A stretch of DNA of 32,000 nt from Streptomyces phaeofaciens (GTDB taxonomy: Bacteria; Actinomycetota; Actinomycetes; Streptomycetales; Streptomycetaceae), in the NCBI RefSeq assembly GCF_014648915.1, contig NZ_BMSA01000020.1, positions 26,850-58,849 on the forward strand. Direction: 5' to 3'. Of this stretch, positions 5,491 to 24,240 are shown one piece after another (within the stretch, counting starts at the first letter, position 1; each line of letters starts with the position of its first letter). The notes beneath the pieces were generated by a model that ran no database searches, was not told where the DNA came from, and saw nothing but the letters and a program-made list of their open reading frames with translations. The position numbers and the translations under genes were made by a program.

Positions 5491-5817
5491 CTACGGGGCC
5501 GGGAACCTCCGCTCGTTGCGGTCGATCTTCGCGTCCAGGGCCGCCAGCGGATCCACGCCGAGGACCTCGCACAGTTGCAGCAGATAGGCGAGGACGTCGG
5601 CGACCTCGTCGCTCACCCGGTGCGCGCTCTCCGGGTCGTCCATGACGCGCGCCGATTCCTCCGGCGTCAGCCACTGGAAGATCTCGACCAGCTCGGAGGC
5701 CTCCACGCTGAGCGCGGCGGCGAGGTTCTTGGGGGTGTGGTACGGCTGCCAGTTGCGCGCGGCCGCGAACTCGGCCAGCCGGCGCTGGAGTTTCGCCACG
5801 TCGAGGTGTTCTGTCAC
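5491..5817 (-). CDS. MazG-like all-alpha nucleotide pyrophosphohydrolase (DCTPP1/YpjD-like)
   Basis: GTG start at 5817 overlaps the upstream stop as GTGA. Sequence begins (V)TEHLDVAKLQRRLAEFAAARNWQPYHTPKNLAAALSVEASELVEIFQW and carries the metal-binding pairs EASE (ExxE) and EVAD (ExxD). Confidence 0.85.
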   Translation of the reverse strand: MTEHLDVAKLQRRLAEFAAARNWQPYHTPKNLAAALSVEASELVEIFQWLTPEESARVMDDPESAHRVSDEVADVLAYLLQLCEVLGVDPLAALDAKIDRNERRFPAP

Positions 5818-7064
5818 GGATCCAGGTGTACCACCGTCACGCCGCGGGTCCGGGCGGCCCAGGAGGCGTCGCCGACCGCGCCGGTGCAGCGGATGTGTCC
5901 GCGCTCGGCCATCCGCACGGCCAGCCGCAGCAGTTCGGCGTGCTGGCGGACGTCGAGGCCCCGGTCGAGGTTGTCGGCGAGGAGGGTGAGCGTCTGCATC
6001 GCGGACGGCACCTCGCCGGCCGTGTCCAGGTCGAGGACGCCGGGGCCGGTGAGCAGGACCAGCGCGAGGGCGACGTAGCGCAGTTCGCCGTAGCCGAGCC
6101 GGGCCAGTTCCGTGCGGGTGCCGTCGCCGCGGTCGAGGAGGGCGCGGACCGTTCCGTCGCCGAGCGGCACGGCGAGCAGGTCCGTGACGGGCCGGGAGCA
6201 GCCGGCGGCGAGTGCGCCCACGAGCTGTGCGTGCCGCCGTACGCACTCCTCGCGGGTGCGCCAGAGTACGTCGGCGAGGTTGTCGCAGCCGCCGAGCAGC
6301 CGTCCGGTGCCGGTGGGCACCGGGGCGCCCATCCAGTCGGGCTGGGGGTCGCAGGCGAAGACGGAGCGCAGGGCCACCACCATCTGTTCGGCGGCGGCGA
6401 GCACCCGGCGCTGTCCGTCGGTCTTGCCGGCCACGCGCAGCGGCAGCAGTGCGGTGCCGAGCCGGTCGTCGGGGAGCGGGGCGCGGGTGACGGGCGCGGA
6501 TCCGGCGGTGTGCCAGGCGGCCTGCACCGTACGCCGCCCCGGGTCGCGCAGGGCGGTCTCCAGCAGGACGACGCCGCCCGCGCTCAGCCGCTCCCCCACG
6601 ACGCGCAGCTCGGGTTCGGCCTGTACGGCGACGTCGAGCCGGACCGGCCCCTCGGGTCCGTCGGCCGTACAGCCGATGCGGAAGCCGCGGCGCCGCTGGG
6701 CGTCGGGGCGGGCCCGCTCCGGCACACAGGCGACGGGGTCGGGGAACACCTCACCGAGCGGTGCGCCACCGCCGAGCCGGGCGAGCGCCTCGTAGGCCCG
6801 CAGGGCGGTGGTCTTGCCACTCCCGCTCCGCCCGGCGAACAAGGTCACCGTGCCGAGCGGGAACGCCGCCCGACGGTGCCCGGCGAAGGCGGAGAGCCGC
6901 AGTTCGGTGAGGCAGGGGCGGAGGTGCTGCTCGGGGGCCGGGTCGGGCGGGGCGGCCGACGGTGACGCCTGGGCGGGCACCCGGGCGGGTGCCATGGACG
7001 GCGTCGGGTCGGGGGACGCGGCGCGGGCTGCCGAGGAGGCGGGCGACGGGGGCGGCACGGACAT
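5814..7064 (-). CDS. ABC/SMC-like P-loop ATPase (AAA_15/21-type) with a P/A/S-rich N-terminal tail
   Basis: Shows the RecF/SMC-type N-terminal pattern LTELRLSAFAGHRRAAFPLGTVTLFAGRSGSGKTTAL, including Walker A GRSGSGKT. Signature-like LGYGELRYVALAL is present. The Walker B-like segment TLTLLADNLDRGLDVRQH has D-N where D-E is expected. Confidence 0.8.
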   Translation of the reverse strand: MSVPPPSPASSAARAASPDPTPSMAPARVPAQASPSAAPPDPAPEQHLRPCLTELRLSAFAGHRRAAFPLGTVTLFAGRSGSGKTTALRAYEALARLGGGAPLGEVFPDPVACVPERARPDAQRRRGFRIGCTADGPEGPVRLDVAVQAEPELRVVGERLSAGGVVLLETALRDPGRRTVQAAWHTAGSAPVTRAPLPDDRLGTALLPLRVAGKTDGQRRVLAAAEQMVVALRSVFACDPQPDWMGAPVPTGTGRLLGGCDNLADVLWRTREECVRRHAQLVGALAAGCSRPVTDLLAVPLGDGTVRALLDRGDGTRTELARLGYGELRYVALALVLLTGPGVLDLDTAGEVPSAMQTLTLLADNLDRGLDVRQHAELLRLAVRMAERGHIRCTGAVGDASWAARTRGVTVVHLDP

Positions 7065-7152
7065 ATCCGGACCGTAGGACTCCGGGCGACTGCCGAACCG
7101 TTCCGCCCGCCCGGCTTCCTACGATCGGGCGACGCCGGGACGAATACGGCCA

Positions 7153-7318
7153 CCTTCACCCCGTCCGGGAAGGACGCGGCTCACCTTCACACCGTCCGGG
7201 ACGGACACGGCCGCCTTCACACCGCCCGGGACGGATGCGCGACCCGCCTTCACCCCGCCCGGGACGGACGCGGCCCGCCTTCACCCCTTCCGGGCTCGAA
7301 ACCCGGCCGCGTCCGTCA
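7153..7318. repeat. Array of five ~31-bp tandem repeats (periods 31/30/33/31; last unit degenerate)
   Basis: ccttcac recurs at 7153, 7184, 7214, 7247 and 7278. Each occurrence is followed by c(c/a)ccg(t/c)ccggga(c/a)gga(c/t)(g/a)cg, containing the small palindrome gtcc-g-ggac. A partial unit precedes at about 7131. The array lies between the SepF-like stop (7333) and the ATPase start (7064). Confidence 0.85.
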
Positions 7319-7332
7319 GGCCCGAGTCCCCG

Positions 7333-7713
7333 TCAGACCCCCGCCCCTGCCATGATCCCGCTCACCTCGGTGCCCGGCGGGGTCAGCAGGAAGACGTTGC
7401 GGTCCACGCGGTGCATTCCGCTCGCGAGGCCGAAGACCACGCCGGTGGAGAAGTCGAGGACGCGCTTGGCGACCTCGGTCTCCGCGCCGGTGAGGTCGAG
7501 GAGGACCGGGATGCCTGCCATCAGGGTCTCGGCGACCTCGCGGGCGTCCGCGAAGATGTTGACCCGCATGACGACGAAGCGGCGACGGGTCTCCGTCTCC
7601 GCGTCGGGCAGCGCGCGATGGCCCACCGCCGACGGCCAGGCGTCCCGACCACGCAACGGAACGACCTGGGCGAGCCCCTCCCACTGTTCATCGGTGACGT
7701 CGTATCGGTTCAC
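7333..7713 (-). CDS. sepF: SepF-family (DUF552) cell-division protein paralog, short form
   Basis: Core sequence is FVVMRVNIFADAREVAETLMAGIPVLLDLTGAETEVAKRVLDFSTGVVFGLASGMHRVDRNVFLLTPPG. GTG start at 7713 has gggggag as RBS. The track ORF extends to 7758. Confidence 0.8.
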   Translation of the reverse strand: MNRYDVTDEQWEGLAQVVPLRGRDAWPSAVGHRALPDAETETRRRFVVMRVNIFADAREVAETLMAGIPVLLDLTGAETEVAKRVLDFSTGVVFGLASGMHRVDRNVFLLTPPGTEVSGIMAGAGV

Positions 7714-7973
7714 CGGCTCCCCCCGAATTGACTCGCACTCAATGCCTGCACTGGCCAATTCTTACGCCAAGTCACCCGTTCGGCCCAACAGCGACACGGA
7801 CCGCGACCGTCACACCCGCCCCGAACGGGACTTCTCGCCCGCCTCGCGAAGGTACTCATCACCTGCGGTGACATCAGCTTCGCCGACTGCGACCAGGGAC
7901 CCGGCCCTCCGTGGCGCGGGCACGCTCGCCGCCGTCAGCCTCTTCACCGGCGGGCGACCGCCCCGACAGAAGC

Positions 7974-15072: not shown

Positions 15073-16131
15073 TCATGCCCCGGGCGCCAGCCCGAGCTCC
15101 CGAGCGCCCAGCGGCGCGAAGAACCGTTCCACGTCGGCGTCGGTGACCTCGGCGAGTGTCGCCGGGGACCAGCGCGGGTTGCGGTCCTTGTCGACGACCT
15201 GGGCGCGGACGCCCTCCACCAGGTCCGCGGTGGTCAGGGCGGCGAGGGAGACCCGGTACTCCTGGTCCAGGACCTGTTCCAGCGTGCCGAGCCGCCGGGC
15301 CCGGCGCAGCGCGACCAGGGTGACCTTGAGCGAGGTGGGCGACTTGGCGAGCAGGGTCTCGGCGGCCTCCTTGGCCGCCGGGTCGCCGTGGTCGAGGAGC
15401 CGTTCGACGATCTCCTCCACGGTGCCGGCGGCGTAACAGCCGTCGATCCACTCCCGCCGGCCGGCCAGCTCCCCCTGCGGCACGGCCCGCGCATGGCGGG
15501 CGAGGGCGTCGCGTACGGGGTGGGCGGCGAGGTCCTCCAGAAGGTGCGGGACCGACGCGGACGGTACGAAATGGTCGGCGAGCCCGCACAACAGGGCGTC
15601 GGCCGCGCCGATCTGAGCACCCGTCAGCCCGAGGTGGATGCCCAGCTCACCCGGCGCGTGGGCGAGCAGCCGGGTGCCGCCGACGTCCGGGACGAAGCCG
15701 ATGCCGGTCTCGGGCATCGCGACGCGCGACCGCTCGGTGACGATCCGGACGCTGCCGTGTGCGGAGATGCCGACGCCGCCGCCCATCACGATCCCGTCCA
15801 TGACGGCGACGTACGGCTTCGGGAAGCGGGCGATCCGGGCGTTCAGCCGGTACTCGTCGCGCCAGAACGCCGCCGAGGCCGTGCCGTCGCCGTCGCGGGC
15901 GTCGTCGTGGACGGCGCGGATGTCACCGCCCGCGCACAGTCCGCGCTCCCCCGCCCCGGTGATCACGACGGTCTCGACGGCCGGGTCCCGCTCCCAGGCG
16001 GTGAGCGCGCGGTCGATGCGGCCGACCATGTCGTGGTTCAGGGCGTTGATGGCTCGGGGGCGGTTGAGGACGAGGTGGGCGGCCCGGCCGGCCCGGTGCA
16101 GGAGAACGGGTTCCTCGGTGCTGCCGCTCAT
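15073..16131 (-). CDS. Enoyl-CoA hydratase/isomerase family protein (3-hydroxyisobutyryl-CoA hydrolase-like)
   Basis: Track ORF 15073..16209, trimmed to the ATG at 16131. Contains LNRPRAINALNHDMV, ITGAGERGLCAGGDIRA, VAVMDGIVMGGGVGIS and PETGIGFVPDVGG. Length is about 352 aa. Confidence 0.9.
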   Translation of the reverse strand: MSGSTEEPVLLHRAGRAAHLVLNRPRAINALNHDMVGRIDRALTAWERDPAVETVVITGAGERGLCAGGDIRAVHDDARDGDGTASAAFWRDEYRLNARIARFPKPYVAVMDGIVMGGGVGISAHGSVRIVTERSRVAMPETGIGFVPDVGGTRLLAHAPGELGIHLGLTGAQIGAADALLCGLADHFVPSASVPHLLEDLAAHPVRDALARHARAVPQGELAGRREWIDGCYAAGTVEEIVERLLDHGDPAAKEAAETLLAKSPTSLKVTLVALRRARRLGTLEQVLDQEYRVSLAALTTADLVEGVRAQVVDKDRNPRWSPATLAEVTDADVERFFAPLGARELGLAPGA

Positions 16132-16238
16132 CCCCACGCCTCCGCCGGCCCGCGGGCCACGATGTCGCACATGATCTCGTCGGTTCCTTCCAGGCTCCGG
16201 AGACCGCACAGGTCACAGGCGGCCCCCTGACCACCGTA

Positions 16239-16338
16239 ACCGCTGCGAGGGGGACGGCCGCGAGGGAGTGTCCACGGCCGCGAGGGCGACTGCCGCGAGC
16301 GAGCATTCACCGCCGCCACGGCGACTGCCGCGAGGGGG
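16239..16338. repeat. Five 15-bp direct repeats AC(G/T/C)GC(C/T)GCGAG(G/C)G(N)G in the divergent region upstream of the toxin operon
   Basis: accgctgcgaggggg (16239), acggccgcgagggag (16254), acggccgcgagggcg (16274), actgccgcgagcgag (16289), actgccgcgaggggg (16324). Confidence 0.75.
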
Positions 16339-16503
16339 CGCCCACCGCCCCCGCGCCGGCCCGGCACCGCCGGAGCAGACGCCTCCACCGCGGCGCGCCC
16401 CCTTGCCGGGGCCGGTGCGGGCCAACCTTCACGAGAACCACCCGCTCCCTCACCATCGTCCTGCTCTACGGTGCCAACAGGCCACGACCACCGGGGAGGA
16501 ACC

Positions 16504-16938
16504 GTGCAGCGGCGGAGGACGGAGCTTGCCGAGCGGATCGCCGGGCGGCGGGAGGGAGGTGACGACCCCCGTGCCCTGGTCGGTGAGATGAGGCGTTCGG
16601 TGCTTCTGGTGCCGGTGTCGGACGGGGGGCTGTGGTCGGTGCGTTCGGGCGGGGTGCGGTGGATCTGCGCCTTCACCGACGAGACCGCCCTGGCGCGGTT
16701 CGCCCTGCGCCACGCGCCGGGTGATCAGCCCATGGACTACGCGGCGTTGCTGGGCGCCCGCATCGTCGACGAGATCGTGCCCGCGCTGGGTGAGCCGGCC
16801 GGGCTCGCGGTCGACATCGCCACCGAGGACGGGTCGATGTTCTTCCCGCCGGTCGTCGGCATCGTCCCGGACGCGGTCGCCGTCGACGCGGGTGCGGGTG
16901 CGGGTGCGGGTGCGGCAGGAGAGGGGCCGCGGTCATGA
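16504..16938 (+). CDS. SseB-like small protein (tentative family), first gene of the Rhs operon
   Basis: GTG at 16504 follows ggggagga. Sequence RSVLLVPVSDGGLWSVRSGGVRWICAFTDETALARFA...GLAVDIATEDGSMFFPP resembles the SseB N-terminal domain pattern. The C-terminal tail is (AG)n. The stop overlaps the next start as ATGA. Confidence 0.75.
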   Translation: MQRRRTELAERIAGRREGGDDPRALVGEMRRSVLLVPVSDGGLWSVRSGGVRWICAFTDETALARFALRHAPGDQPMDYAALLGARIVDEIVPALGEPAGLAVDIATEDGSMFFPPVVGIVPDAVAVDAGAGAGAGAAGEGPRS

Positions 16939-17585
16939 GCGGTGAGGGAGCGGACCTTCGGCTCGGCAAGGAAGCCGTCGCGAAGTTCACGCAAGGGGTC
17001 GGCGCCACCATCGAGCAGCTCGGTGAACTCGGCGGCGCGACCGGTTCGGTGATGGGCAAGGGCTTCTCGGAGCTGGCCATGACCGGGATGGAGGCCGGAC
17101 ACCACGGCCTCTCGGTCGACTTCGAGGACTTCTGCGAGCGCTGGGAGTGGGGTGTGCGCGCCCTGGTGCACGACGCGAGCGAGATCGCGAACCGCCTCGG
17201 TCTGGCGGCGGGCACCCAGTGGGAGCACGACCAGTACGTGGCGGGCTCGCTGAAGGTGGGCGTCAACGCGCTGATGGGCGGCAATCCGCACGCGAGCGAG
17301 GAGGAGATCACCCAGCAGGACTGGGGCGATGTGTTCACGCCGGACTATCTGGACCCGGACTGGAGCGCCGAGTCGTGGGACAAGGCCGGTCAGGACATGG
17401 AGCAGACGTGGAAGGACACCGGCCGCACGGTGCTGACCGAGGGTCAGGGCGGCCGGCAGTCGGAGATGCTGAACGACGCGATGGGCATCTCCGACGACCA
17501 GTGGAACCAGGCGCTGGACGACACCTTCGGCCCGTCGCCGGAGGAACGCGCGCAGCAACAGCAGGGTGAGTCCGGGGGGAACTGA
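16935..17585 (+). CDS. Acidic, Trp-rich hypothetical protein (216 aa), possible WXG/Lap-like secretion partner
   Basis: ATG at 16935 overlaps the upstream TGA. The N-terminal roughly 100 aa look helical and include FEDFCERWEWGVRAL. The C-terminal half is D/E/Q/W-rich (QQDWGDVFTPDYLDPDWSAESWDKAG...DDQWNQALDD). The gene ends 2 nt before the Rhs start. Confidence 0.8.
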   Translation: MSGEGADLRLGKEAVAKFTQGVGATIEQLGELGGATGSVMGKGFSELAMTGMEAGHHGLSVDFEDFCERWEWGVRALVHDASEIANRLGLAAGTQWEHDQYVAGSLKVGVNALMGGNPHASEEEITQQDWGDVFTPDYLDPDWSAESWDKAGQDMEQTWKDTGRTVLTEGQGGRQSEMLNDAMGISDDQWNQALDDTFGPSPEERAQQQQGESGGN

Positions 17586-17587
17586 GC

Positions 17588-20500
17588 GTGGGAATCGGCG
17601 ACTTCATCAGTGACATCACGCCCGACTCGGTCGAGGACGCGGTCGAGGACGGTGTGGAGTGGGTCGGCAACCGGGTCGAGGACGCCGGGAACTGGACCGC
17701 GGACCGGCTGGACGACGCCGGCTGGGAGTCCGGCGCGGACTGGGTGCGCGAGCAGTCCCGTTCGGTCGCCAACCGGCTGGGCGCCGAGGTCGACGAGATG
17801 GACCTCGGGCAGACCGAGGACAAGACCAAGCTGATCTACGGCAGCGCGGACAAGATCCGCTCCACCGCCGAGAAACTCCGCGGCTTCCAGACGGCCTTCG
17901 ACAGCGCCGGCGAGGGCCTCAAGGGCCTGGACTCCTCCCGCCTCAAGGGCGAGACGGCCGGAGCGGTGCGCACCGCGGTGAGCACCCAGCCGCCCAAGTG
18001 GTTCACCGGCGCAGACGCCTGCACGAAGGCGGCCGCCGCGCTGGAGGCGTTCGCCGGCACCGTCACCTGGGCGCAGGGACAGGCGCAGACGGCGATCGAC
18101 CAGTGGAAGAAGGGCGTCAAGGCCTCCGAGGACGCCGCCGACGCCCACCGCAAGAAGGTCGACGACTACAACAGCGCCGTCGACCGCTACAACGCCCAGC
18201 CCTCCGACAAACGCGACCCGGCCACCCTGCCTCCCAAGCCCGCCGCGACGTTCGACGATCCGGGCAAGAAGCTGATGCAGGACGCCCAGGACCTCCTCGC
18301 CGAGGCCCGAAAGCAGCGCAACTCGACGGCGGAGACCGCGCGTACGGCCGTCGCCGCCGCCCGCGACATGGCCCCGAAGAAGCCGGACTACGCCGATCAA
18401 CTGGGCGACGGCTTCGCAGAGTTGCAGATCATGGGCGACCATGTCGGCGGCGGCATCATCAAGGGCACGGCCGGCATCCTGAACTTCGTCCGCAGCGTGA
18501 ACCCGATGGACCCGTACAACATCACGCATCCGGCCGAGTACGCCACGTCGCTGAACAGCCTGGCCGCGGGTCTGGTGGTCGCCGCCAACGACCCGGTCGG
18601 CACCGGCAAGCAGATGATCGGCGACTTCATGAAGGACCCGGCGGAGGGCTTCGGCCGGCTGATCCCCGACCTGGCACTGACGGCCGCCACCGGAGGCGGC
18701 GGCGCCGCCGTGAAGGGCGTGCGCATCGCCGAGGAGGCCGCCGACGCCGCACGGCTGCGCAGACTGCTCGACGACGCCCCGGACGGCACCCACCGTCGGC
18801 CGGACGGTGAGCGCGTCACCGACGGCACGGACCCGGTGGACCTCGCCTCGGGCCGGATGTACCTGCCCCAGACCGACCTCGCGGTCCCGGGCGTCCTGCC
18901 CCTGGTGTTCACCCGCCGCACCGAGTCGGGCTGCACGGCCGGCCGTTTCCTCGGCGTCTCCTGGACCTCCACGGTCGACGAGCGGCTGGAGATCGACGCC
19001 ATCGGCGTCGTCCACGTCACCGCCGACGGTCTGCTCGTCCCCTACCCGCACCCGGTCCCCGGCCTGCCCACCCGGCCGCAGTCGGGCCGCTCCCGCACGC
19101 TCCTCTCCCGGGACGCGGACGGCGACTTCACCCTCACCGACCCCGACACCGGCCTGACCCGCCACTTCACCGCCCCGCCCGGAGGCGAGCCGGGCGGCGA
19201 CGGCACGGCCTGGCTGTCCACCGTCGCCGAGCCCAACGGCCACACCCTCACCGTCGACCGCGGCGAGGACGGCCTGCCGCTGGCGCTCGTCCACTCGGCG
19301 GGCCACCGGGTGACACTGACCACGGCCGAAGGCCTGGTCACCGCCCTGTCCCTGGCCGGCGCGGGCGAGAACGGCGCGGACCTGCCCCTGATGCACTACG
19401 GCTACCAGGACGGCGACCTCACCACGGTCACCAAGCCGTCCGGTGCCGTCACCACCTTCCTCTACGACGACCGCCACCGCGTCATCGCCTGGATCGACTC
19501 CAACGGAAGCCGCTACGACTACGTCTACGACGACCGCGACCGCGTCGTCGCCGAGGGCGGCGAAGCCGGCCACATCCAGATCACCCTCGCCTACACCGAA
19601 CCCGACCCCGAGACGGGTCACCGCGTCACCACGCTGACCACCGCCGAGGGGCACAGCACCCGCCATCTCATCGGCCCCGGCTGCCGCGTCCTGGCCACCA
19701 CGGATCCGCTCGGTCACACCACCCGGTTCACCTACGACACCCGCGGGAACCTCCTCACCCGCACCGACCCGCTCGGCCGCACCACCACCCACACCTACGA
19801 CGAGAACGACCGTATGGTCGCGGTGCTCCGCCCGGACGGCAGCCGGCTCGCCATGAAACCGGGCCCGTTCGGGAGGTACACGGACCTCCACGCCCCGGAC
19901 GGCAGCCGCTGGCTCCAGAGCTTCGACGAGCGCGGCAACCGGGTGACGGTCACCGATCCGGCCGGCCACACGGTCCGGTACGCCTACGACGCCCGGGGAT
20001 GCCTGACCTCGATCACCGACGCGCTGGGAGCCGTCACCACGGTCCGCTGCGACGCCATGGGCCGGCCCGAACAGGTCGTCGACCCGGCCGGCGGGACCAC
20101 TCTGCTCCAGCGCGACGCCCTCGGAAACACCCACCACGTCACCGACCCCACGGGCGGCGTCACGCGTCTCGAGTGGGACGCGGACGGCCATCTGGTCCGC
20201 CGCGAGGCGCCGGACGGCGTCACCGAGTCGTGGACCTACGACGGCGAGGGCAACCGCCTCACCCACACCGACCCGGTCGGCGGGGTGTCCCGCTTCGAAT
20301 ACACCCACTTCGACCTGGTGGCGGCGCGCGTCCAGCCGAACGGGAGCCGGTACGAATTCGGGTACGACGCCTCGCTGCGGCTCGTCCGGGTCACCGACCC
20401 GCAGGGCGCGCGATGGACCTACGCGTACGACGCGGCCGGCCGCACGGTGTCGGAGACCGACTTCGACGGCCGCACCCTCCGCTACCGCCTCGACGCCGCC

Positions 20501-22363
20501 GGACAGCTCGTCTCCCGAACCGACGCGCTCGGCCACGTCATCTCCTTCGAGCGGGACCAGCTCGGCCAGGTGATCCGGAAGGACGCCGACGGCCAGGTGA
20601 CCACCTACGGCTACGACCGGGCCGGACGTCTCCTCCAGGCGTCCGGCCCGGACAGCGAGCTGCTCTACACCTACGACCGCCGGGGACGGGTCAAGTCCGA
20701 ACTCGTCGACGGCCGCGTCATGAGCTACGCGTACAACGCCGCGGGCCGCCGCATCCGCCGCATCACCCCCACCGGCCACGTGACCACGTACGCCTACGAC
20801 GCCAGTGGCCGTCCCGAGCGCCTGACCTCCGGAGGGTCCCCGGTCGTCTTCGCCCATGACGTCGCGGGTCGTGAGACGGCCCGTGTCTTCGCGGACTTCA
20901 CCGACCCTCTCACCGTCACCTCGGCCTGGGACGAGGCCGGCCGGCTCTCCGCCAGCCACCTGACCGCCGGCGGCCGCACCCTCAACAGCCGTGCCTACTC
21001 CTACCGCCCGGACGGCCACCTCAGCTCGGTCAGCGACCTCTTGTCGGGCACCCGCACCTTCGACCTGGACGCGGTCGGCCACGTCACCGCCGTCCACGCG
21101 CAGGGGTGGACCGAGCGGTACGCCTACGACGCGAGCGGCAACCTGACCGAGGCGTCCTGGCCCGCCTCCCACCCCGGCAACGAAGCCACAGGACCGCGGA
21201 CCTACGCCGGCACGGCGATCACCCGCGCCGGAGCGGTCCGCTTCGAACACGACGCCCTCGGCCGCATCACCCTGCGGCAGAAGACCCGCCTGTCCCGCCG
21301 ACCCGACACCTGGCGCTACGCGTGGGACGCCGAGAACCGGCTCACCTCGGTGATCACCCCGGACGGCGCCCGTTGGCGCTACCGCTACGATCCGCTGGGC
21401 CGCCGCGTCGCCAAGCAGCGTCTGGCGGACGACGAGACCGTGGTGGAGGAGACCCGGTTCGCATGGGACGGCATGACCCTCTGCGAACAGACCGTTCACC
21501 ACCCGGACCTGCCCAGCGCGGTCGCCCTCACCTGGGACCACCGGTCCGGCGTCCCCCTCTCGCAGACCGAACGCCTCCTCACGGCGGACACCCGGCAGGA
21601 GGAGGTGGACCGGCGCTTCTTCGCCATCGCCACCGACCTCGTCGGAACCCCCACCGAGCTGATCGGCCAGGACGGCGACATCGCCTGGCGCTCCCGCGCC
21701 ACCCTCTGGGGCACCACCGCCTGGAGCAGCTCCAGCACCGCCTACACCCCGCTCCGCTTCCCCGGTCAGTACTACGACCCGGAAACCGGCCTGCACTACA
21801 ACCTGTTCCGCCACTACGACCCGGAAACGGCGCGCTACCTCACCCCCGACCCCCTCGGGCTCGCTCCCGCGCCCAATCCCGTCGCCTACGTCCACAACCC
21901 CCACACCTGGTCCGACCCCCTCGGACTCAGCCCGTATCCGCGTGGCGAGAAGGGCAACCCCTTCGACAACCGCGCGGATGCGGAAAAGGCGGCGTTCGAC
22001 CTCGCCGGTGTTCGTCACGGCGAGGAACCCATCGCCGAGTGGGTGGTCACCGGGGACAAGCAGCTGAAGCACGTGCCGGGTTACGTCTATTCACCCGACC
22101 CGGCGCACTGGGGCAATTTCCGGCAGTTCGAAACCGAGAGCGGCTCGCGTGTGGTCGTCGAGCACACCCACGACCCGGCGGGCCCGCACTTCCATGCCGG
22201 AAAACCGAAGATCGACGACACCCGAGAGCTCGTCAACTTCGGCTGGGACAACGCGAGAGTGCAGCGTCCCGACGGCAGCCTCGGCTATCCGGAGTCCATG
22301 GAGCGGTATGCCAAGATAAACAAGGAGGGTGGCGATCATCACCTGTTCTACGAAGGCAACTGA
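17588..22363 (+). CDS. Rhs/YD-repeat polymorphic toxin with helical T7SS/LXG-like N-terminal domain and variable C-terminal toxin domain
   Basis: 1591 aa with a GTG start after gggggga. No Sec signal and no PAAR domain. The helical N-terminus contains VTWAQGQAQTAIDQWKKG, and DPVDLASGRMYLPQTDL lies at about aa 415. There are dozens of YD repeats, for example FTYDTRGNLLTRTDPLGRTTTHTYDENDRMV. The Rhs core end reads PLRFPGQYYDPETGLHYNLFRHYDPETARYLTPDPLGL...WSDPLGL, followed by a 144-aa tip. Confidence 0.95.
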   Translation: MGIGDFISDITPDSVEDAVEDGVEWVGNRVEDAGNWTADRLDDAGWESGADWVREQSRSVANRLGAEVDEMDLGQTEDKTKLIYGSADKIRSTAEKLRGFQTAFDSAGEGLKGLDSSRLKGETAGAVRTAVSTQPPKWFTGADACTKAAAALEAFAGTVTWAQGQAQTAIDQWKKGVKASEDAADAHRKKVDDYNSAVDRYNAQPSDKRDPATLPPKPAATFDDPGKKLMQDAQDLLAEARKQRNSTAETARTAVAAARDMAPKKPDYADQLGDGFAELQIMGDHVGGGIIKGTAGILNFVRSVNPMDPYNITHPAEYATSLNSLAAGLVVAANDPVGTGKQMIGDFMKDPAEGFGRLIPDLALTAATGGGGAAVKGVRIAEEAADAARLRRLLDDAPDGTHRRPDGERVTDGTDPVDLASGRMYLPQTDLAVPGVLPLVFTRRTESGCTAGRFLGVSWTSTVDERLEIDAIGVVHVTADGLLVPYPHPVPGLPTRPQSGRSRTLLSRDADGDFTLTDPDTGLTRHFTAPPGGEPGGDGTAWLSTVAEPNGHTLTVDRGEDGLPLALVHSAGHRVTLTTAEGLVTALSLAGAGENGADLPLMHYGYQDGDLTTVTKPSGAVTTFLYDDRHRVIAWIDSNGSRYDYVYDDRDRVVAEGGEAGHIQITLAYTEPDPETGHRVTTLTTAEGHSTRHLIGPGCRVLATTDPLGHTTRFTYDTRGNLLTRTDPLGRTTTHTYDENDRMVAVLRPDGSRLAMKPGPFGRYTDLHAPDGSRWLQSFDERGNRVTVTDPAGHTVRYAYDARGCLTSITDALGAVTTVRCDAMGRPEQVVDPAGGTTLLQRDALGNTHHVTDPTGGVTRLEWDADGHLVRREAPDGVTESWTYDGEGNRLTHTDPVGGVSRFEYTHFDLVAARVQPNGSRYEFGYDASLRLVRVTDPQGARWTYAYDAAGRTVSETDFDGRTLRYRLDAAGQLVSRTDALGHVISFERDQLGQVIRKDADGQVTTYGYDRAGRLLQASGPDSELLYTYDRRGRVKSELVDGRVMSYAYNAAGRRIRRITPTGHVTTYAYDASGRPERLTSGGSPVVFAHDVAGRETARVFADFTDPLTVTSAWDEAGRLSASHLTAGGRTLNSRAYSYRPDGHLSSVSDLLSGTRTFDLDAVGHVTAVHAQGWTERYAYDASGNLTEASWPASHPGNEATGPRTYAGTAITRAGAVRFEHDALGRITLRQKTRLSRRPDTWRYAWDAENRLTSVITPDGARWRYRYDPLGRRVAKQRLADDETVVEETRFAWDGMTLCEQTVHHPDLPSAVALTWDHRSGVPLSQTERLLTADTRQEEVDRRFFAIATDLVGTPTELIGQDGDIAWRSRATLWGTTAWSSSSTAYTPLRFPGQYYDPETGLHYNLFRHYDPETARYLTPDPLGLAPAPNPVAYVHNPHTWSDPLGLSPYPRGEKGNPFDNRADAEKAAFDLAGVRHGEEPIAEWVVTGDKQLKHVPGYVYSPDPAHWGNFRQFETESGSRVVVEHTHDPAGPHFHAGKPKIDDTRELVNFGWDNARVQRPDGSLGYPESMERYAKINKEGGDHHLFYEGN

Positions 22364-22395
22364 ACACCGTAGGGACCGATGAGGGGCCAGACATC

Positions 22396-22836
22396 ATGAA
22401 CGACCGGCAGGCACCGGAGTGGCGCGACACCCTTCGGCGCTGCGGACTCGTCGAGGTGACGGGGGAGACGGCGCCCGACGGCCCGCCGGTGAACGCCGCC
22501 ATCCACGCGGTCAGCGGATTCGAGGTGGAGCCGGTCGCCACCGTCCCCGCGTCCACCCCCCACGCCGCCGACGAGCTGGACGAGACGTGGCACCACCACG
22601 CCGTACAGGCGTCGCTGTACGGGGAGGGCGGCGATTTCCTCATCCTCCCGCCGGTACCCGGCGGGAGCAGGATCGGCTGGGTGCGGGTGAAGGACCCGCT
22701 CGGCAAGAACCTCCCGTCCCGCATTTCCGGCGTGACGGGTTCCCCCGAGTTCGTGGCCGTCTCGGTCGACGGCCGCCACCTGTGTGCCGCCTCGGTCGAG
22801 GAATCCGACTACTGGGTGGTCGTGCACGAATTCTGA
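22396..22836 (+). CDS. Putative cognate immunity protein (146 aa, cytosolic)
   Basis: ATG lies 32 nt after the Rhs stop and is preceded by gaggggc. It sits in-frame at the tail of track ORF 21106..22836. The protein begins MNDRQAPEWRDTLRRCGLVEV. No TM segment or signal peptide, and no family recognised. The call rests on position. Confidence 0.7.
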   Translation: MNDRQAPEWRDTLRRCGLVEVTGETAPDGPPVNAAIHAVSGFEVEPVATVPASTPHAADELDETWHHHAVQASLYGEGGDFLILPPVPGGSRIGWVRVKDPLGKNLPSRISGVTGSPEFVAVSVDGRHLCAASVEESDYWVVVHEF

Positions 22837-22868
22837 GGTCGCACGATCCTCATGGACGACGACCTGGC

Positions 22869-22892
22869 GGGCGGTGGAACGGGCCACCGCCC
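22869..22892. terminator. 9-bp GC hairpin between convergent immunity and methyltransferase genes
   Basis: gggcggtgg-aacggg-ccaccgccc. Confidence 0.4.
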
Positions 22893-22911
22893 CCGGCCGG
22901 AGAGCCGCGGG

Positions 22912-24240
22912 TCAGATCCCCTTCGCCACCGGCTCCAGAATCGCCACGCACTCCACGTGATGCGTCATCGGGAACAGATCGAACGCCCGCAGCGTCCGCA
23001 CCCGGTACCCCCCGTCCCGGAAGTACCCCAGATCCCGCGCCAACGCAGCCGGATCACACGCCACATAGGCGATCTTCCGCGCACCGAGCGACGTCAGTTG
23101 CTCGACCGTCTTCTTGCCGGCCCCCGCGCGCGGCGGGTCGAGGACGATCAGGTCGACCTCCGTGATGCCGGTGCGCGGGAGGACGCTCTCCACCTTGCCC
23201 TGCTCGATCCGGACGCGGTCGAAGCCGGCGAGGTTGTGCCGGGCGTCCTCGACGGCGCGCTTACCGGACTCGATGCCGAGGACCGCGCCCTTGTCGCCGA
23301 GGCGGTCGGCGAGGGCCCCCGCGAAGAGGCCGACGCCGCAGTACAGGTCGAGCGCCATGTCGCCCTTGCGCGGCAGCAGGCCCTGCATGACGGCCTTGAC
23401 CAGGGTGTCGGCGGCCATCGGGTGGACCTGCCAGAAACCGCCGCTGCCGACGCGGTGCGTACGGCCGTCGGCCCGCTCGCGCACGAAGGCGCGGCCGTGG
23501 ACGCGGTGGATGCCGCCGTCCTTCTCCTCGACGCGCATCACGGAGACCGGCTTGTCGAGTTCGACGAGGGGCAGGCGGGCGCCGGGCCGCGGCTCGAGGA
23601 TCACCATGCGGTCCTGGGAGCCCGTCGCGGCGATCGCCTCGACGGAGGCCATGCCGGACCAGTCACGGTTCTCGATACCGAGCTCGCTGACGCCGGGTGC
23701 CGCGATCATGCAGTGCTCGATCGGCTCGACCTCGTGCGAGCGGTGGCGGCGCAGCCCCGCGTTGCCGTCCGGGTCGACCGCGTACTGCACGCGCGTGCGC
23801 CACTGCGGTACCTCGCCGGCCGGCAGCTTGTCGCCCTCGGCCGGCATCACGGTGCCGTCCCAGCCGGCCTCCTCGGGGGTGAGCCCGGCGAGCCGCTGGA
23901 GCTGTTCGGCGATCACCTCGCCCTTGAGCCGGCGCTGGGCGCCGGGCTTGGCGTGCTGCCAGTCGCAGCCGCCGCAGCGGCCGGGGCCGGCGTAGGGGCA
24001 GGGGGCCTCGACCCGGTCCTTGGACGCGTCCAGGATCTGTACGGCGTCGGCGCGCAGGAAGCGCGCGCCCTCCTCGCCGTCCGTCACCCGGGCCACGACC
24101 CGCTCGCCCGGCAGCGCGTGCCGGACGAACAGCACCTGGCCGGAGTCGGTGCGGGCGATGCAGTGGCCGCCGTGGGCGACGGGGCCGATCTCGACCTCGT
24201 ACTCCGTCCCCACCAGCGTTTTCTTCGGTTCTTCCTGCAT
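22912..24240 (-). CDS. TRAM-domain class I SAM-dependent RNA (uracil-5) methyltransferase, RlmD/RumA-like (Rv2689c-like)
   Basis: Track ORF 22912..24291, trimmed to the ATG at 24240. The TRAM region reads EVEIGPVAHGGHCIARTDSGQVLFVRHALPGERV. The Fe-S Cys cluster is CPYAGPGRCGGCDWQH. SAM motifs are LDLYCGVGLF and DLIVLDPPRAG, and the catalytic region is IAYVACDP. Confidence 0.9.
   Translation of the reverse strand: MQEEPKKTLVGTEYEVEIGPVAHGGHCIARTDSGQVLFVRHALPGERVVARVTDGEEGARFLRADAVQILDASKDRVEAPCPYAGPGRCGGCDWQHAKPGAQRRLKGEVIAEQLQRLAGLTPEEAGWDGTVMPAEGDKLPAGEVPQWRTRVQYAVDPDGNAGLRRHRSHEVEPIEHCMIAAPGVSELGIENRDWSGMASVEAIAATGSQDRMVILEPRPGARLPLVELDKPVSVMRVEEKDGGIHRVHGRAFVRERADGRTHRVGSGGFWQVHPMAADTLVKAVMQGLLPRKGDMALDLYCGVGLFAGALADRLGDKGAVLGIESGKRAVEDARHNLAGFDRVRIEQGKVESVLPRTGITEVDLIVLDPPRAGAGKKTVEQLTSLGARKIAYVACDPAALARDLGYFRDGGYRVRTLRAFDLFPMTHHVECVAILEPVAKGI

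What the first reader, a model, noticed from the sequence alone, without database searches (positions are those of the whole stretch)
16504..22836. Four-gene Rhs polymorphic-toxin operon inserted between housekeeping genes
Four same-strand genes are packed almost without gaps: an ATGA overlap at 16935-16938, a 2-nt gap at 17585/17588, and a 32-nt gap before the last gene. In order they are an SseB-like protein, an acidic Trp-rich helical protein, a 1591-aa Rhs toxin and a small cytosolic protein in the immunity position. The flanks are core metabolism and translation genes: an enoyl-CoA hydratase on the left and an RNA methyltransferase on the right. The right flank continues into a block that resembles M. 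tuberculosis Rv2689c-Rv2694c. The locus therefore looks like an accessory insertion. No integrase, transposase, tRNA or secretion-machinery gene is present in the window. Rhs toxins are well studied with T6SS and Tc systems. An actinomycete Rhs with this helper set has, to my knowledge, no worked-out export or delivery mechanism.
Basis: partly seen in the sequence, partly recalled or inferred. Interest (0 to 1): 0.8.

Follow-up and report, generated by a model that had tools for sequence, protein, structure and literature searches.

The report
Streptomyces T7SS-type Rhs nuclease toxin operon

Summary
Four same-strand genes at 16504-22836 have exactly the stated junctions. They are an SseB-like protein (g1), an acidic Trp-rich helical protein (g2), a 1591-aa Rhs and a small acidic protein (g4).

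The Rhs N-terminus is a Pfam "putative T7SS secretion signal" domain (PF21725, E 1.5e-89). Its tip is a Tox-HNH-EHHH nuclease. g2 has no Pfam hit itself, but 29 of 66 family members hit ESX EspC and 25 of 66 hit WXG100.

In 80 related Streptomyces loci, g1, g2, the Rhs N-terminus and the Rhs core are always present in the same order. The toxin tip falls into at least 14 types. The window's tip and g4 recur together in only two of those loci. An ECF-sigma-type promoter travels with the operon in 74 of 80 loci.

The operon lies in a variable region. The enoyl-CoA hydratase neighbour is found in 0 of 80 loci, and close relatives lack the operon beside the methyltransferase. No mobility genes or insertion scars were found.

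The window comes from S. phaeofaciens JCM 4814. NCBI already names close relatives of the Rhs "putative T7SS-secreted protein".

Verdict: a new member of a known, computationally predicted kind that remains experimentally uncharacterised. Interest is moderate.

The parts
16435..16462 (+). Conserved ECF-sigma-type promoter: -35 GAACC (16435-16439), 17-nt spacer, -10 CGTCCT (16457-16462)
   Evidence: GAAC[CT]-N15-18-CGTC lies about 69 nt upstream of the g1 start in 74 of 80 loci, against 1.5% of random 150-nt windows. The spacer sequence varies while both boxes are kept. The pattern resembles the sigma-E target promoters listed in PMC6767563. Function is inferred, not shown.
16493..16499 (+). 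Ribosome-binding site GGGGAGG of g1
   Evidence: Conserved with the GTG start in the alignment of upstream regions.
16504..16938 (+). g1: 144-aa SseB-like alpha/beta protein, a candidate secretion chaperone or adaptor
   Evidence: PF07179 at 23.4 bits against a cut-off of 21. Orthologs are named 'SseB family protein' by NCBI. Present in 80 of 80 loci whatever the toxin tip. AF2 core pLDDT is 80-88, and the best PDB folds are TTHA0547 (E 8e-3) and Tic22.
16935..17585 (+). g2: 216-aa acidic, Trp-rich helical protein, a divergent WXG100/EspC-like partner
   Evidence: ATGA overlap with g1. There are 931 homologs at 81-98% identity in Streptomyces and 208 representative clusters. Of 66 family members, 29 hit PF10824 T7SS_ESX_EspC and 25 hit PF06013 WXG100. 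The window protein itself has no hit. The AF2 model is all-helical but low confidence, pLDDT 47.
17588..22363 (+). Rhs polymorphic toxin, 1591 aa
   Evidence: Residues 384-1448 match solved T6SS Rhs cores (8qjc, E 1e-100).
17630..18385 (+). N-terminal T7SS_signal domain (residues 15-266)
   Evidence: PF21725, E 1.5e-89, full-length match to profile positions 1-241 of 241. No Sec or Tat leader and no TM-grade hydrophobic segment.
18386..18829 (+). Conserved Gly/Ala-rich linker (residues 267-414) of unknown role
   Evidence: 77-95% identity to residues 281-420 in most of the 80 loci (66-72% in three), usually higher than the shell. No Pfam hit. Maximum 19-residue Kyte-Doolittle score is 1.0, so it is not a TM segment.
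18830..21928 (+). Rhs cage: DUF6531 plug (415-485), YD-repeat shell, and Rhs-associated core (1373-1447) ending in DPLGL (21914-21928)
   Evidence: Orthologs stop being alignable directly after this motif.
21929..22360 (+). Variable C-terminal toxin (residues 1448-1591) with Tox-HNH-EHHH nuclease (1499-1588); E1525-H1526, H1534 and H1536 present
   Evidence: PF15657 at 33.1 bits against a cut-off of 25. Motif position. GC3 is 0.81 against 0.94 for the rest of the gene. This tip is shared only with L049, L054 and L085.
22396..22836 (+). g4: 146-aa acidic cytosolic protein, the presumed cognate immunity protein
   Evidence: Full-length homologs follow this tip in L049, L054 and L085. They also persist behind decayed tip remnants in L016 and L018. 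Homology between same-tip operons ends about 5 nt after its stop codon. No Pfam, PDB or PADLOC match.

Best explanation
This is a chromosomal polymorphic-toxin module of Streptomyces phaeofaciens. It encodes an Rhs-encapsulated HNH/EndoVII (EHHH) DNase aimed at neighbouring bacteria, its immunity protein g4, and two constant helpers.

Proposed mechanism:
1. An ECF-sigma-type promoter drives one g1-g2-rhs-g4 transcript. (Inferred from conservation and from the tight gene junctions.)
2. g4 neutralises the nuclease in the producer. (Inferred from co-inheritance of g4 with this tip.)
3. The helical N-terminal T7SS_signal domain of the Rhs pairs with the WXG100/EspC-like g2. Together they form the helical-bundle signal recognised by the ESX (type VIIa) secretion system encoded elsewhere in the genome. 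The SseB-like g1 acts as a cytosolic chaperone or adaptor for this roughly 175-kDa cargo. (Inferred by analogy with LXG-Lap, EsaD-EsaE and CpnT-EsxEF.)
4. After export, the YD shell encloses the tip, and autoproteolysis at the DPLGL|SPY junction frees it. (Motif present; cleavage not shown.)
5. Entry into the target cell is unknown.

Over evolutionary time the tip and immunity pair is swapped by recombination just after the DPLGL motif, while g1, g2 and the N-terminal two-thirds of the Rhs stay constant.
For: - Domain content of the Rhs: PF21725 at E 1.5e-89, RHS repeats at E 9.5e-96, the TIGR03696 core and PF15657 EHHH. The cage region matches solved Rhs cores.
- g2-family members hit ESX EspC and WXG100.
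- g1, g2, the Rhs N-terminus and the core are present in 80 of 80 loci with fixed spacing. The tips fall into at least 14 types, including Colicin_D, Ntox28, Ntox30 and ART-HYD1.
- g4 co-occurs with the EHHH tip or its remnants.
- The conserved promoter is present in 74 of 80 loci.
- No Sec or Tat leader is present.
- Public annotation of close relatives reads 'putative T7SS-secreted protein'.
- Literature:
  - T7SS-linked RHS toxins are listed for Actinobacteria (PMC3482391).
  - The cpnT operon carries esxE-esxF (PMC12635105).
  - Streptomyces has a working ESX system that secretes EsxAB (cited in PMC11406982).
Against: - No T7SS gene is in the window or recurrently near the 80 loci.
- The window's own g2 has no significant Pfam, NCBIfam or PDB hit.
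- The g2 model is unreliable (pLDDT 47).
- No conserved YxxxD/E export motif or canonical WxG motif was found by eye in g2 or the Rhs N-terminus.
- The g1 fold match is weak (E 8e-3, TM 0.43-0.63), and only one of five AF2 models was confident.
- A folded Rhs cocoon is thought too large for the T7SS channel (PMC10327511).
- PF21725 is itself only a 'putative' signal.
- No experiment on secretion, toxicity or immunity exists in the literature searched.
Confidence: 0.7

Rival explanations
1. The Rhs toxin is real but leaves the cell by a route other than ESX. Candidates are cell lysis during programmed hyphal death, membrane vesicles, or a contractile injection system. In this reading g1 and g2 serve folding or stability only.
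For: No T7SS genes are linked to the operon in the window or in the 80 loci. An Rhs cocoon is considered too large for folded T7SS export (PMC10327511). PF21725 is only 'putative'.
Against: The strongest match of the N-terminus is to a domain family defined by T7SS association. The g2 family is related to ESX EspC and WXG100. The Rhs lacks a DUF4157-type eCIS domain and a Sec or Tat leader. T7SS substrates are often encoded away from the machinery, as with LXG hotspots in Listeria (PMC10327511).
Confidence: 0.15
2. The operon acts within the producer's own colony rather than against competitors. It could serve kin discrimination, developmental cell death, or abortive infection on phage attack or envelope stress, consistent with the ECF-type promoter.
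For: The conserved ECF-type promoter resembles cell-envelope-stress promoters. Known phenotypes of Streptomyces ESX mutants concern development and phage phiC31 sensitivity, not competition (PMC11406982).
Against: No PADLOC defence-family match. Tip and immunity polymorphism with retained orphan immunity genes is the signature of between-strain antagonism. The Rhs architecture is that of exported toxins.
Confidence: 0.1
3. The locus is a decaying or silent relic: an intact-looking but unexpressed toxin gene kept only because g4 protects against toxins from neighbours.
For: Relatives show decay. L018 keeps only an Rhs N-terminal fragment, a tip remnant and g4. L016 has a frameshifted EHHH remnant with intact g4. 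Several loci have split Rhs ORFs.
Against: In the window all four ORFs are intact and full length, 1591 aa against a family median of 1589. Start sites, ribosome-binding sites and promoter boxes are conserved. The catalytic E/H residues are present. GC3 of 0.87-0.94 shows coding constraint.
Confidence: 0.05

Closest known systems
LXG polymorphic toxins of the type VIIb secretion system with Lap/WXG100-like targeting factors and chaperones (e.g. TelA-LapA3/LapA4, EsaD-EsaE; PMC10801868, PMC9600955, PMC10653861)
   Same: A helical N-terminal trafficking domain. One or two small helical partner genes immediately upstream. A variable C-terminal toxin. An immunity gene immediately downstream. Loci scattered away from the machinery.
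   Different: A different phylum and machine (Actinomycetota T7SSa, not Bacillota T7SSb). The N-terminal domain is PF21725, not LXG PF04740, and no LXG hit was seen even at E up to 10. One helper is an alpha/beta SseB-like protein rather than a helical Lap. The cargo includes a cage of about 1000 residues.
Mycobacterium tuberculosis cpnT operon (esxF-esxE-cpnT-ift), an ESX-dependent NAD+ glycohydrolase toxin (PMC8092274, PMC8593097, PMC12635105)
   Same: An actinobacterial T7SSa context. An operon of small Esx-type proteins, a large two-domain toxin whose N-terminal part is needed for secretion, and a downstream immunity factor.
   Different: CpnT has no Rhs cage and targets host cells across a mycomembrane. 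Its helpers are two canonical WXG100 proteins. No sequence relationship to CpnT was tested or seen here.
T6SS Rhs effectors with Eag (DUF1795) chaperones (e.g. RhsA, Tse5, Salmonella Rhs; PDB 8qjc, 7q97, 8cp6)
   Same: A homologous Rhs cage (E 1e-100 to 8qjc). The DPxGL autoproteolysis motif. A polymorphic tip with downstream immunity. A dedicated small chaperone gene upstream.
   Different: The N-terminus here is a T7SS_signal domain instead of PAAR/prePAAR-TMD or VgrG-binding modules. Delivery by a contractile needle is not available to Streptomyces.
Gram-positive Rhs/YD toxins: Bacillus subtilis WapA (Sec-dependent) and Listeria monocytogenes LrhA (T7SSb-linked; PMC10327511)
   Same: A YD-repeat toxin with a variable tip and immunity gene in a monoderm. 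LrhA is likewise only genetically linked to a T7SS.
   Different: WapA uses a Sec leader and wall-binding domain, both absent here. LrhA sits at the ess locus beside a dedicated EssC variant, whereas this operon is unlinked to machinery.
Streptomyces umbrella toxin particles (UmbA/B/C; PMC11062931)
   Same: The same genus, the same ecological role proposed, and the same pool of polymorphic toxin tips with downstream immunity genes.
   Different: UmbC uses ALF repeats, a Tat signal and lectin partners. None of these are present here.

Membership tests
Rhs/YD-repeat polymorphic toxin | Array of YD/RHS repeats forming the shell | tested here: met
   PF05593 with 17 stretches at E 9.5e-96. TIGR01643 with 15 stretches. 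Residues 384-1448 align to solved Rhs cores (8qjc, E 1.3e-100).
Rhs/YD-repeat polymorphic toxin | Rhs-associated core domain ending in the PxxxxDPxGL autoproteolysis motif | tested here: met
   TIGR03696 at residues 1373-1447, E 7e-23. The sequence ...NPHTWSDPLGL ends at residue 1447. Cleavage itself cannot be tested here.
Rhs/YD-repeat polymorphic toxin | C-terminal tip that varies between otherwise conserved orthologs | tested here: met
   At least 14 tip clusters among 75 orthologs. The core is alignable at 66-89% identity, while the window's tip is found in only 2 of 80 loci.
Rhs/YD-repeat polymorphic toxin | Cognate immunity gene directly downstream that co-varies with the tip | tested here: met
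   g4 homologs of at least 85% identity follow only EHHH tips or their remnants: L049, L054, L085, L016 and L018. Protection itself was not tested.
Rhs/YD-repeat polymorphic toxin | Tip is toxic and is neutralised by the immunity protein | not testable with these tools
   Needs expression experiments.
Type VII (ESX/T7SSa) secretion substrate | N-terminal helical trafficking domain of a T7SS-associated family | tested here: met
   PF21725 T7SS_signal, residues 15-266, covering profile positions 1-241 of 241, E 1.5e-89. The family's link to T7SS is itself labelled 'putative'.
Type VII (ESX/T7SSa) secretion substrate | Small WXG100-superfamily partner encoded alongside | tested here: inconclusive
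   The window's g2 has no Pfam, NCBIfam or PDB hit. However, 29 of 66 diverse family members hit EspC PF10824 (best E 1.6e-7) and 25 of 66 hit WXG100 (best E 2.4e-6).
Type VII (ESX/T7SSa) secretion substrate | WxG turn motif and YxxxD/E export motif | tested here: inconclusive
   The g2 family signature is RWxWG (W70 invariant, W72 nearly invariant), which is not a canonical W-x-G. The only YxxxD (Y138-D142) is not conserved. No motif was seen in the Rhs N-terminus by eye.
Type VII (ESX/T7SSa) secretion substrate | Genetic linkage to EccC/EccB/EccD/MycP machinery | tested here: not met
   None in the 32-kb window. No recurrent neighbour family in the 80 loci. Linkage is not obligatory for T7SS substrates.
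Type VII (ESX/T7SSa) secretion substrate | Secretion depends on the EccC ATPase | not testable with these tools
   Needs an eccC mutant and secretome analysis.
Tox-HNH-EHHH (HNH/EndoVII nuclease toxins) | Profile match above the curated threshold and the [ED]H, H, H residues | tested here: met
   PF15657 at 33.1 bits against a cut-off of 25, residues 1499-1588. E1525-H1526, H1534 and H1536 lie in VEHTHDPAGPHFHAG. Residue pattern as in PMC3482391.
SseB family (PF07179) | Profile match above the gathering score | tested here: met
   23.4 bits against 21, covering profile positions 14-120 of 124. This is marginal. NCBI names many orthologs 'SseB family protein'. The family has no established biochemical function.
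Mobile genomic island (integrative element) | Integrase or transposase, tRNA target, flanking direct repeats, or atypical composition | tested here: not met
   No such genes and no tRNA. GC3 is typical of the genome. The only repeats are a local tandem array at 16239-16349.

The most novel reading that the evidence does not exclude
The invariant trio of SseB-like g1, EspC/WXG-like g2 and the PF21725 domain is a distinct actinobacterial targeting system. It lets the single, genus-wide Streptomyces ESX machine export a cage-forming toxin of about 175 kDa, presumably unfolded and assembled outside the cell. The operon is switched on by an envelope-stress ECF sigma factor, so the toxin is fired in retaliation when the hypha is attacked. 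This would give the Streptomyces ESX system, so far tied only to sporulation and phage sensitivity, an antibacterial role.
Probability: 0.25. Interest if true: 0.65.

Novelty: new member of a known kind. Interest (0 to 1): 0.4.

Why it matters
T7SS-dependent interbacterial killing is established only in Bacillota. In Actinomycetota the one studied exported toxin, CpnT, targets host cells. The Streptomyces ESX system has only developmental and phage-related phenotypes.

This operon family is found in hundreds of Streptomyces species. It is a ready-made, genetically compact test case for three questions:
- Does T7SSa export antibacterial toxins?
- How can a T7SS handle an Rhs cage judged too large for its channel?
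- What does an SseB-like helper do?

The conserved ECF-type promoter also gives a concrete handle on when the toxin is deployed. The window itself adds no new category. It is one ordinary member with a less common nuclease tip.

Tried and rejected
1. Fold-based identification of g2 failed. The AF2 model had pLDDT 47, so no fold search was run. Sequence and profile searches of the PDB gave only noise.
3. g4 has no match in Pfam, NCBIfam, PDB or PADLOC. Its immunity role rests on genomic linkage only.
4. The sigma-70 promoter and intrinsic terminator scan found nothing in 16000-23200. The GC-rich hairpin between g4 and the methyltransferase is not exceptional (z -1.8).
5. A transmembrane segment in the conserved linker (residues 267-414) was rejected. 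The maximum hydropathy of about 1.0 over 19 residues is too low.
6. An anti-phage defence system was rejected. There is no PADLOC hit.
7. An integrative mobile element was rejected. There is no integrase, tRNA or scar.
8. A Pfam census of all neighbouring genes in the 80 loci was abandoned because it was too large for the tool. All-against-all clustering showed no recurrent neighbour beyond the operon and the SepF block.
9. Literature searches found no experimental paper on a Streptomyces T7SS-Rhs toxin and no mention of PF21725.
Full report
**Observation**

g1 runs 16504-16938, g2 16935-17585, the Rhs gene 17588-22363 (1591 aa) and g4 22396-22836. The junctions are an ATGA overlap, a 2-nt gap and a 32-nt gap. 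A GGGGAGG ribosome-binding site and this GTG are conserved across related loci.

The flanks are as described. An ECH_2 enoyl-CoA hydratase lies on the minus strand to the left. To the right are a TRAM/U5 RNA methyltransferase, an APC permease, two TrkA genes, DUF3159, a response regulator and a KdpD-like kinase. The window contains no tRNA, no Rfam family, no integrase or transposase and no T7SS machinery gene. By exact protein identity the window is from Streptomyces phaeofaciens JCM 4814.

**What the proteins are**

The Rhs protein has six parts:
- Residues 15-266 are a full-length match to Pfam PF21725, "Putative T7SS secretion signal domain" (E 1.5e-89).
- Residues 267-414 are a conserved Gly/Ala-rich linker with no family match and no TM-grade hydrophobicity.
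- Residues 415-485 are a DUF6531 plug.
- A YD-repeat shell follows.
- The Rhs-associated core ends in DPLGL at residue 1447.
- Residues 1448-1591 are a tip matching Tox-HNH-EHHH (33.1 bits against a cut-off of 25), with the E-H, H, H residues present.

Residues 384-1448 align to solved T6SS Rhs cages (8qjc, E 1e-100). The first 380 residues match nothing solved. There is no Sec or Tat leader.

g1 is a marginal but above-threshold SseB-family member. Many of its orthologs are named "SseB family protein" by NCBI. An AF2 model has a confident alpha/beta core (pLDDT 80-88 over residues 30-100, though only one of five models). It resembles TTHA0547 and, more weakly, the protein-transport factor Tic22. 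This is weak evidence.

g2 (pI 4.2, 8 Trp) has no Pfam, NCBIfam or PDB hit of its own. It does belong to a family of 208 representative clusters. When 66 diverse members were scanned, 29 hit ESX EspC (PF10824) and 25 hit WXG100 (PF06013). g2 is therefore best read as a divergent, extended WXG100/EspC-type protein. Its AF2 model is all-helical but unreliable (pLDDT 47).

g4 is acidic, has no leader and matches nothing.

**Comparative evidence**

A scan of one genome per species found 360 loci encoding a g2 relative. The best 80 are all Streptomyces, and two genomes appear twice. In all 80, g1 and g2 are present at about 66-92% and 81-91% identity. In all but two truncated or decayed loci (L004, L018) the Rhs N-terminus and core follow in the same order and spacing.

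Directly after the DPxGL motif the proteins stop being alignable. The tips fall into at least 14 clusters. One unannotated type dominates (50 of 75). Others match Colicin_D, Ntox28, Ntox30 and ART-HYD1.

The window's EHHH tip with a full-length g4 homolog recurs only in S. coriariae (L049), S. flaveus (L054) and Streptomyces sp. NBC_00377 (L085). In L016 and L018 an intact g4 homolog sits behind frameshifted or truncated EHHH remnants. This orphan-immunity pattern is expected of a protective gene.

Among same-tip operons, homology ends about 5 nt after the g4 stop. On the left, conservation begins at a GAACC-N17-CGTCCT element about 69 nt upstream of g1. That element is present at the same position in 74 of 80 loci, against 1.5% of random windows, and its spacer varies freely. 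It has the form of the ECF sigma-E-type promoters catalogued in S. coelicolor (PMC6767563). The conserved unit is therefore about 16435-22841.

**Is it an insertion?**

The operon is accessory and sits in a variable region, but not as a clean insertion between two housekeeping genes.

- The right-hand block (methyltransferase, APC permease, TrkA genes and onward) is conserved. What follows the methyltransferase differs between genomes. In the two closest relatives by methyltransferase identity (95%) it is a rhodanese cluster. In S. ambofaciens it is a Fic/lactamase/amidase set. Neither has an Rhs operon.
- The methyltransferase lies within 10 kb of the operon in only 3 of 80 loci. These are L006 (Ntox30 tip), L051 (another tip) and L018 (decayed).
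- The enoyl-CoA hydratase is adjacent in 0 of 80 loci and KatG in 3 of 80. Both are part of the variable segment.
- The recurrent left anchor is SepF-YceI-MarR. It is shared by 12 of 80 loci and by L085, with different genes between it and the operon.
- Most other loci sit in unrelated contexts.
- Codon usage is native (GC3 0.87-0.94), except the toxin tip at 0.81. This fits tip exchange within the genus rather than recent foreign entry.

That condition is clearly not met, so the accessory reading survives.

**Mechanism**

The best-supported reading is a T7SS(ESX)-targeted Rhs DNase toxin with cognate immunity.

The following are shown by computation:
- the domain architecture;
- the constancy of g1, g2 and the Rhs N-terminus against a variable tip;
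- the linkage of g4 to this tip;
- the promoter conservation.

The following are inferred by analogy:
- g2 pairs with the PF21725 domain to form a helical secretion signal;
- g1 acts as a chaperone or adaptor;
- export runs through the ESX system encoded elsewhere;
- the toxin is autocleaved at DPLGL|SPY;
- g4 neutralises the nuclease.

The analogies are to LXG-Lap systems, to EsaD-EsaE, to the cpnT operon with esxE-esxF, and to Eag chaperones of T6SS Rhs effectors.

Because g1 and g2 accompany every tip type, they must serve the constant part (trafficking), not immunity. How the tip enters a target cell is unknown. How a cage of roughly 86 x 65 Å could pass a channel of about 30 Å is an open problem already noted for the Listeria T7SSb-linked Rhs (PMC10327511).

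**Comparison with what is known**

- T7SS-linked RHS toxins in Actinobacteria, including EHHH tips, were catalogued by Zhang et al. in 2012.
- Garrett et al. 2024 state that Rhs toxins are genetically linked with T7SSa and T7SSb.
- Pfam and NCBI models exist for the N-terminal domain. Relatives of this Rhs at 90% identity or more are already named "putative T7SS-secreted protein" or "HNH/endonuclease VII fold putative polymorphic toxin".
- I found no experimental study of such a toxin in Streptomyces. The 2024 umbrella-toxin paper states that polymorphic toxin systems had not previously been identified in the genus.

**Verdict**

The locus is a genuine, intact, ordinary member of a widespread and computationally recognised family that is experimentally untouched. 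Three modestly new points emerge here: the family-level link of g2 to EspC/WXG100, the invariant SseB-like helper, and the ECF-type promoter that travels with the operon. Novelty: new member of a known kind. Interest: 0.4.

Noticed in passing
window 16239-16349: Three tandem units of about 35 nt, each with two GCCGCGAGGG-like boxes, lie in the intergenic region between the hydratase and g1, just upstream of the conserved promoter. The window has 4 CCGCGAG boxes against at most 2 in the equivalent region of the 80 related loci. They are specific to this genome and unexplained; a regulator-binding array is one possibility.
   Followed up: partly
window 16435-16462; same position in 74 of 80 loci L001-L080: An ECF-sigma-type promoter (GAACC-N17-CGTCCT) is conserved with the operon across unrelated genomic contexts. 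It resembles S. coelicolor sigma-E (cell-envelope stress) target promoters. The sigma factor responsible is not identified.
   Followed up: partly
L001 15437-16195; L054 16015-16764; L006 16669-17694: A gene of about 253 aa with no Pfam match follows the dominant toxin-tip type in 51 loci. It also sits as an extra gene after the g4 homolog in L054 and after other genes in L006. It looks like the immunity gene of the ancestral tip, left behind after tip displacement. The window has no copy.
   Followed up: partly
L016 15798-16542; L018 10663-12707: Orphan immunity: intact g4 homologs (85% identity) lie behind frameshifted or truncated EHHH tip remnants. In L018 the Rhs gene is reduced to an N-terminal fragment, next to the same methyltransferase block as in the window.
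   Followed up: yes
KatG neighbours the operon in 3 of 80 loci and the hydratase in none. Other genomes carry different genes between the SepF-YceI-MarR block and g1.
   Followed up: yes
window 18386-18829 (Rhs residues 267-414): The Gly/Ala-rich linker between the T7SS_signal domain and the Rhs plug is usually more conserved across loci (77-95% in most) than the shell (66-89%). It has no family match and no transmembrane character. Its role is unknown.
   Followed up: partly
window 22865-22894: A GC-rich hairpin (GGCGGTGG-N6-CCACCGCC within a longer stem) lies between the convergent g4 and methyltransferase genes. It has no U-tract, and its folding energy is not exceptional against shuffles (z -1.8).
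   Followed up: yes
window 17444-22072, minus strand: A 1542-aa ORF lies antisense to the Rhs gene. It is a shadow ORF typical of high-GC DNA. The plus-strand frame has the GC3 signal and all the homology.
   Followed up: yes
window 5814-7761 and L085 5164-8139: Upstream of the SepF paralog lies a conserved 431-433-aa P-loop protein with no confident family. In the relative L085 it is accompanied by MazG-like and DUF6099 genes. This block was not examined further.
   Followed up: no
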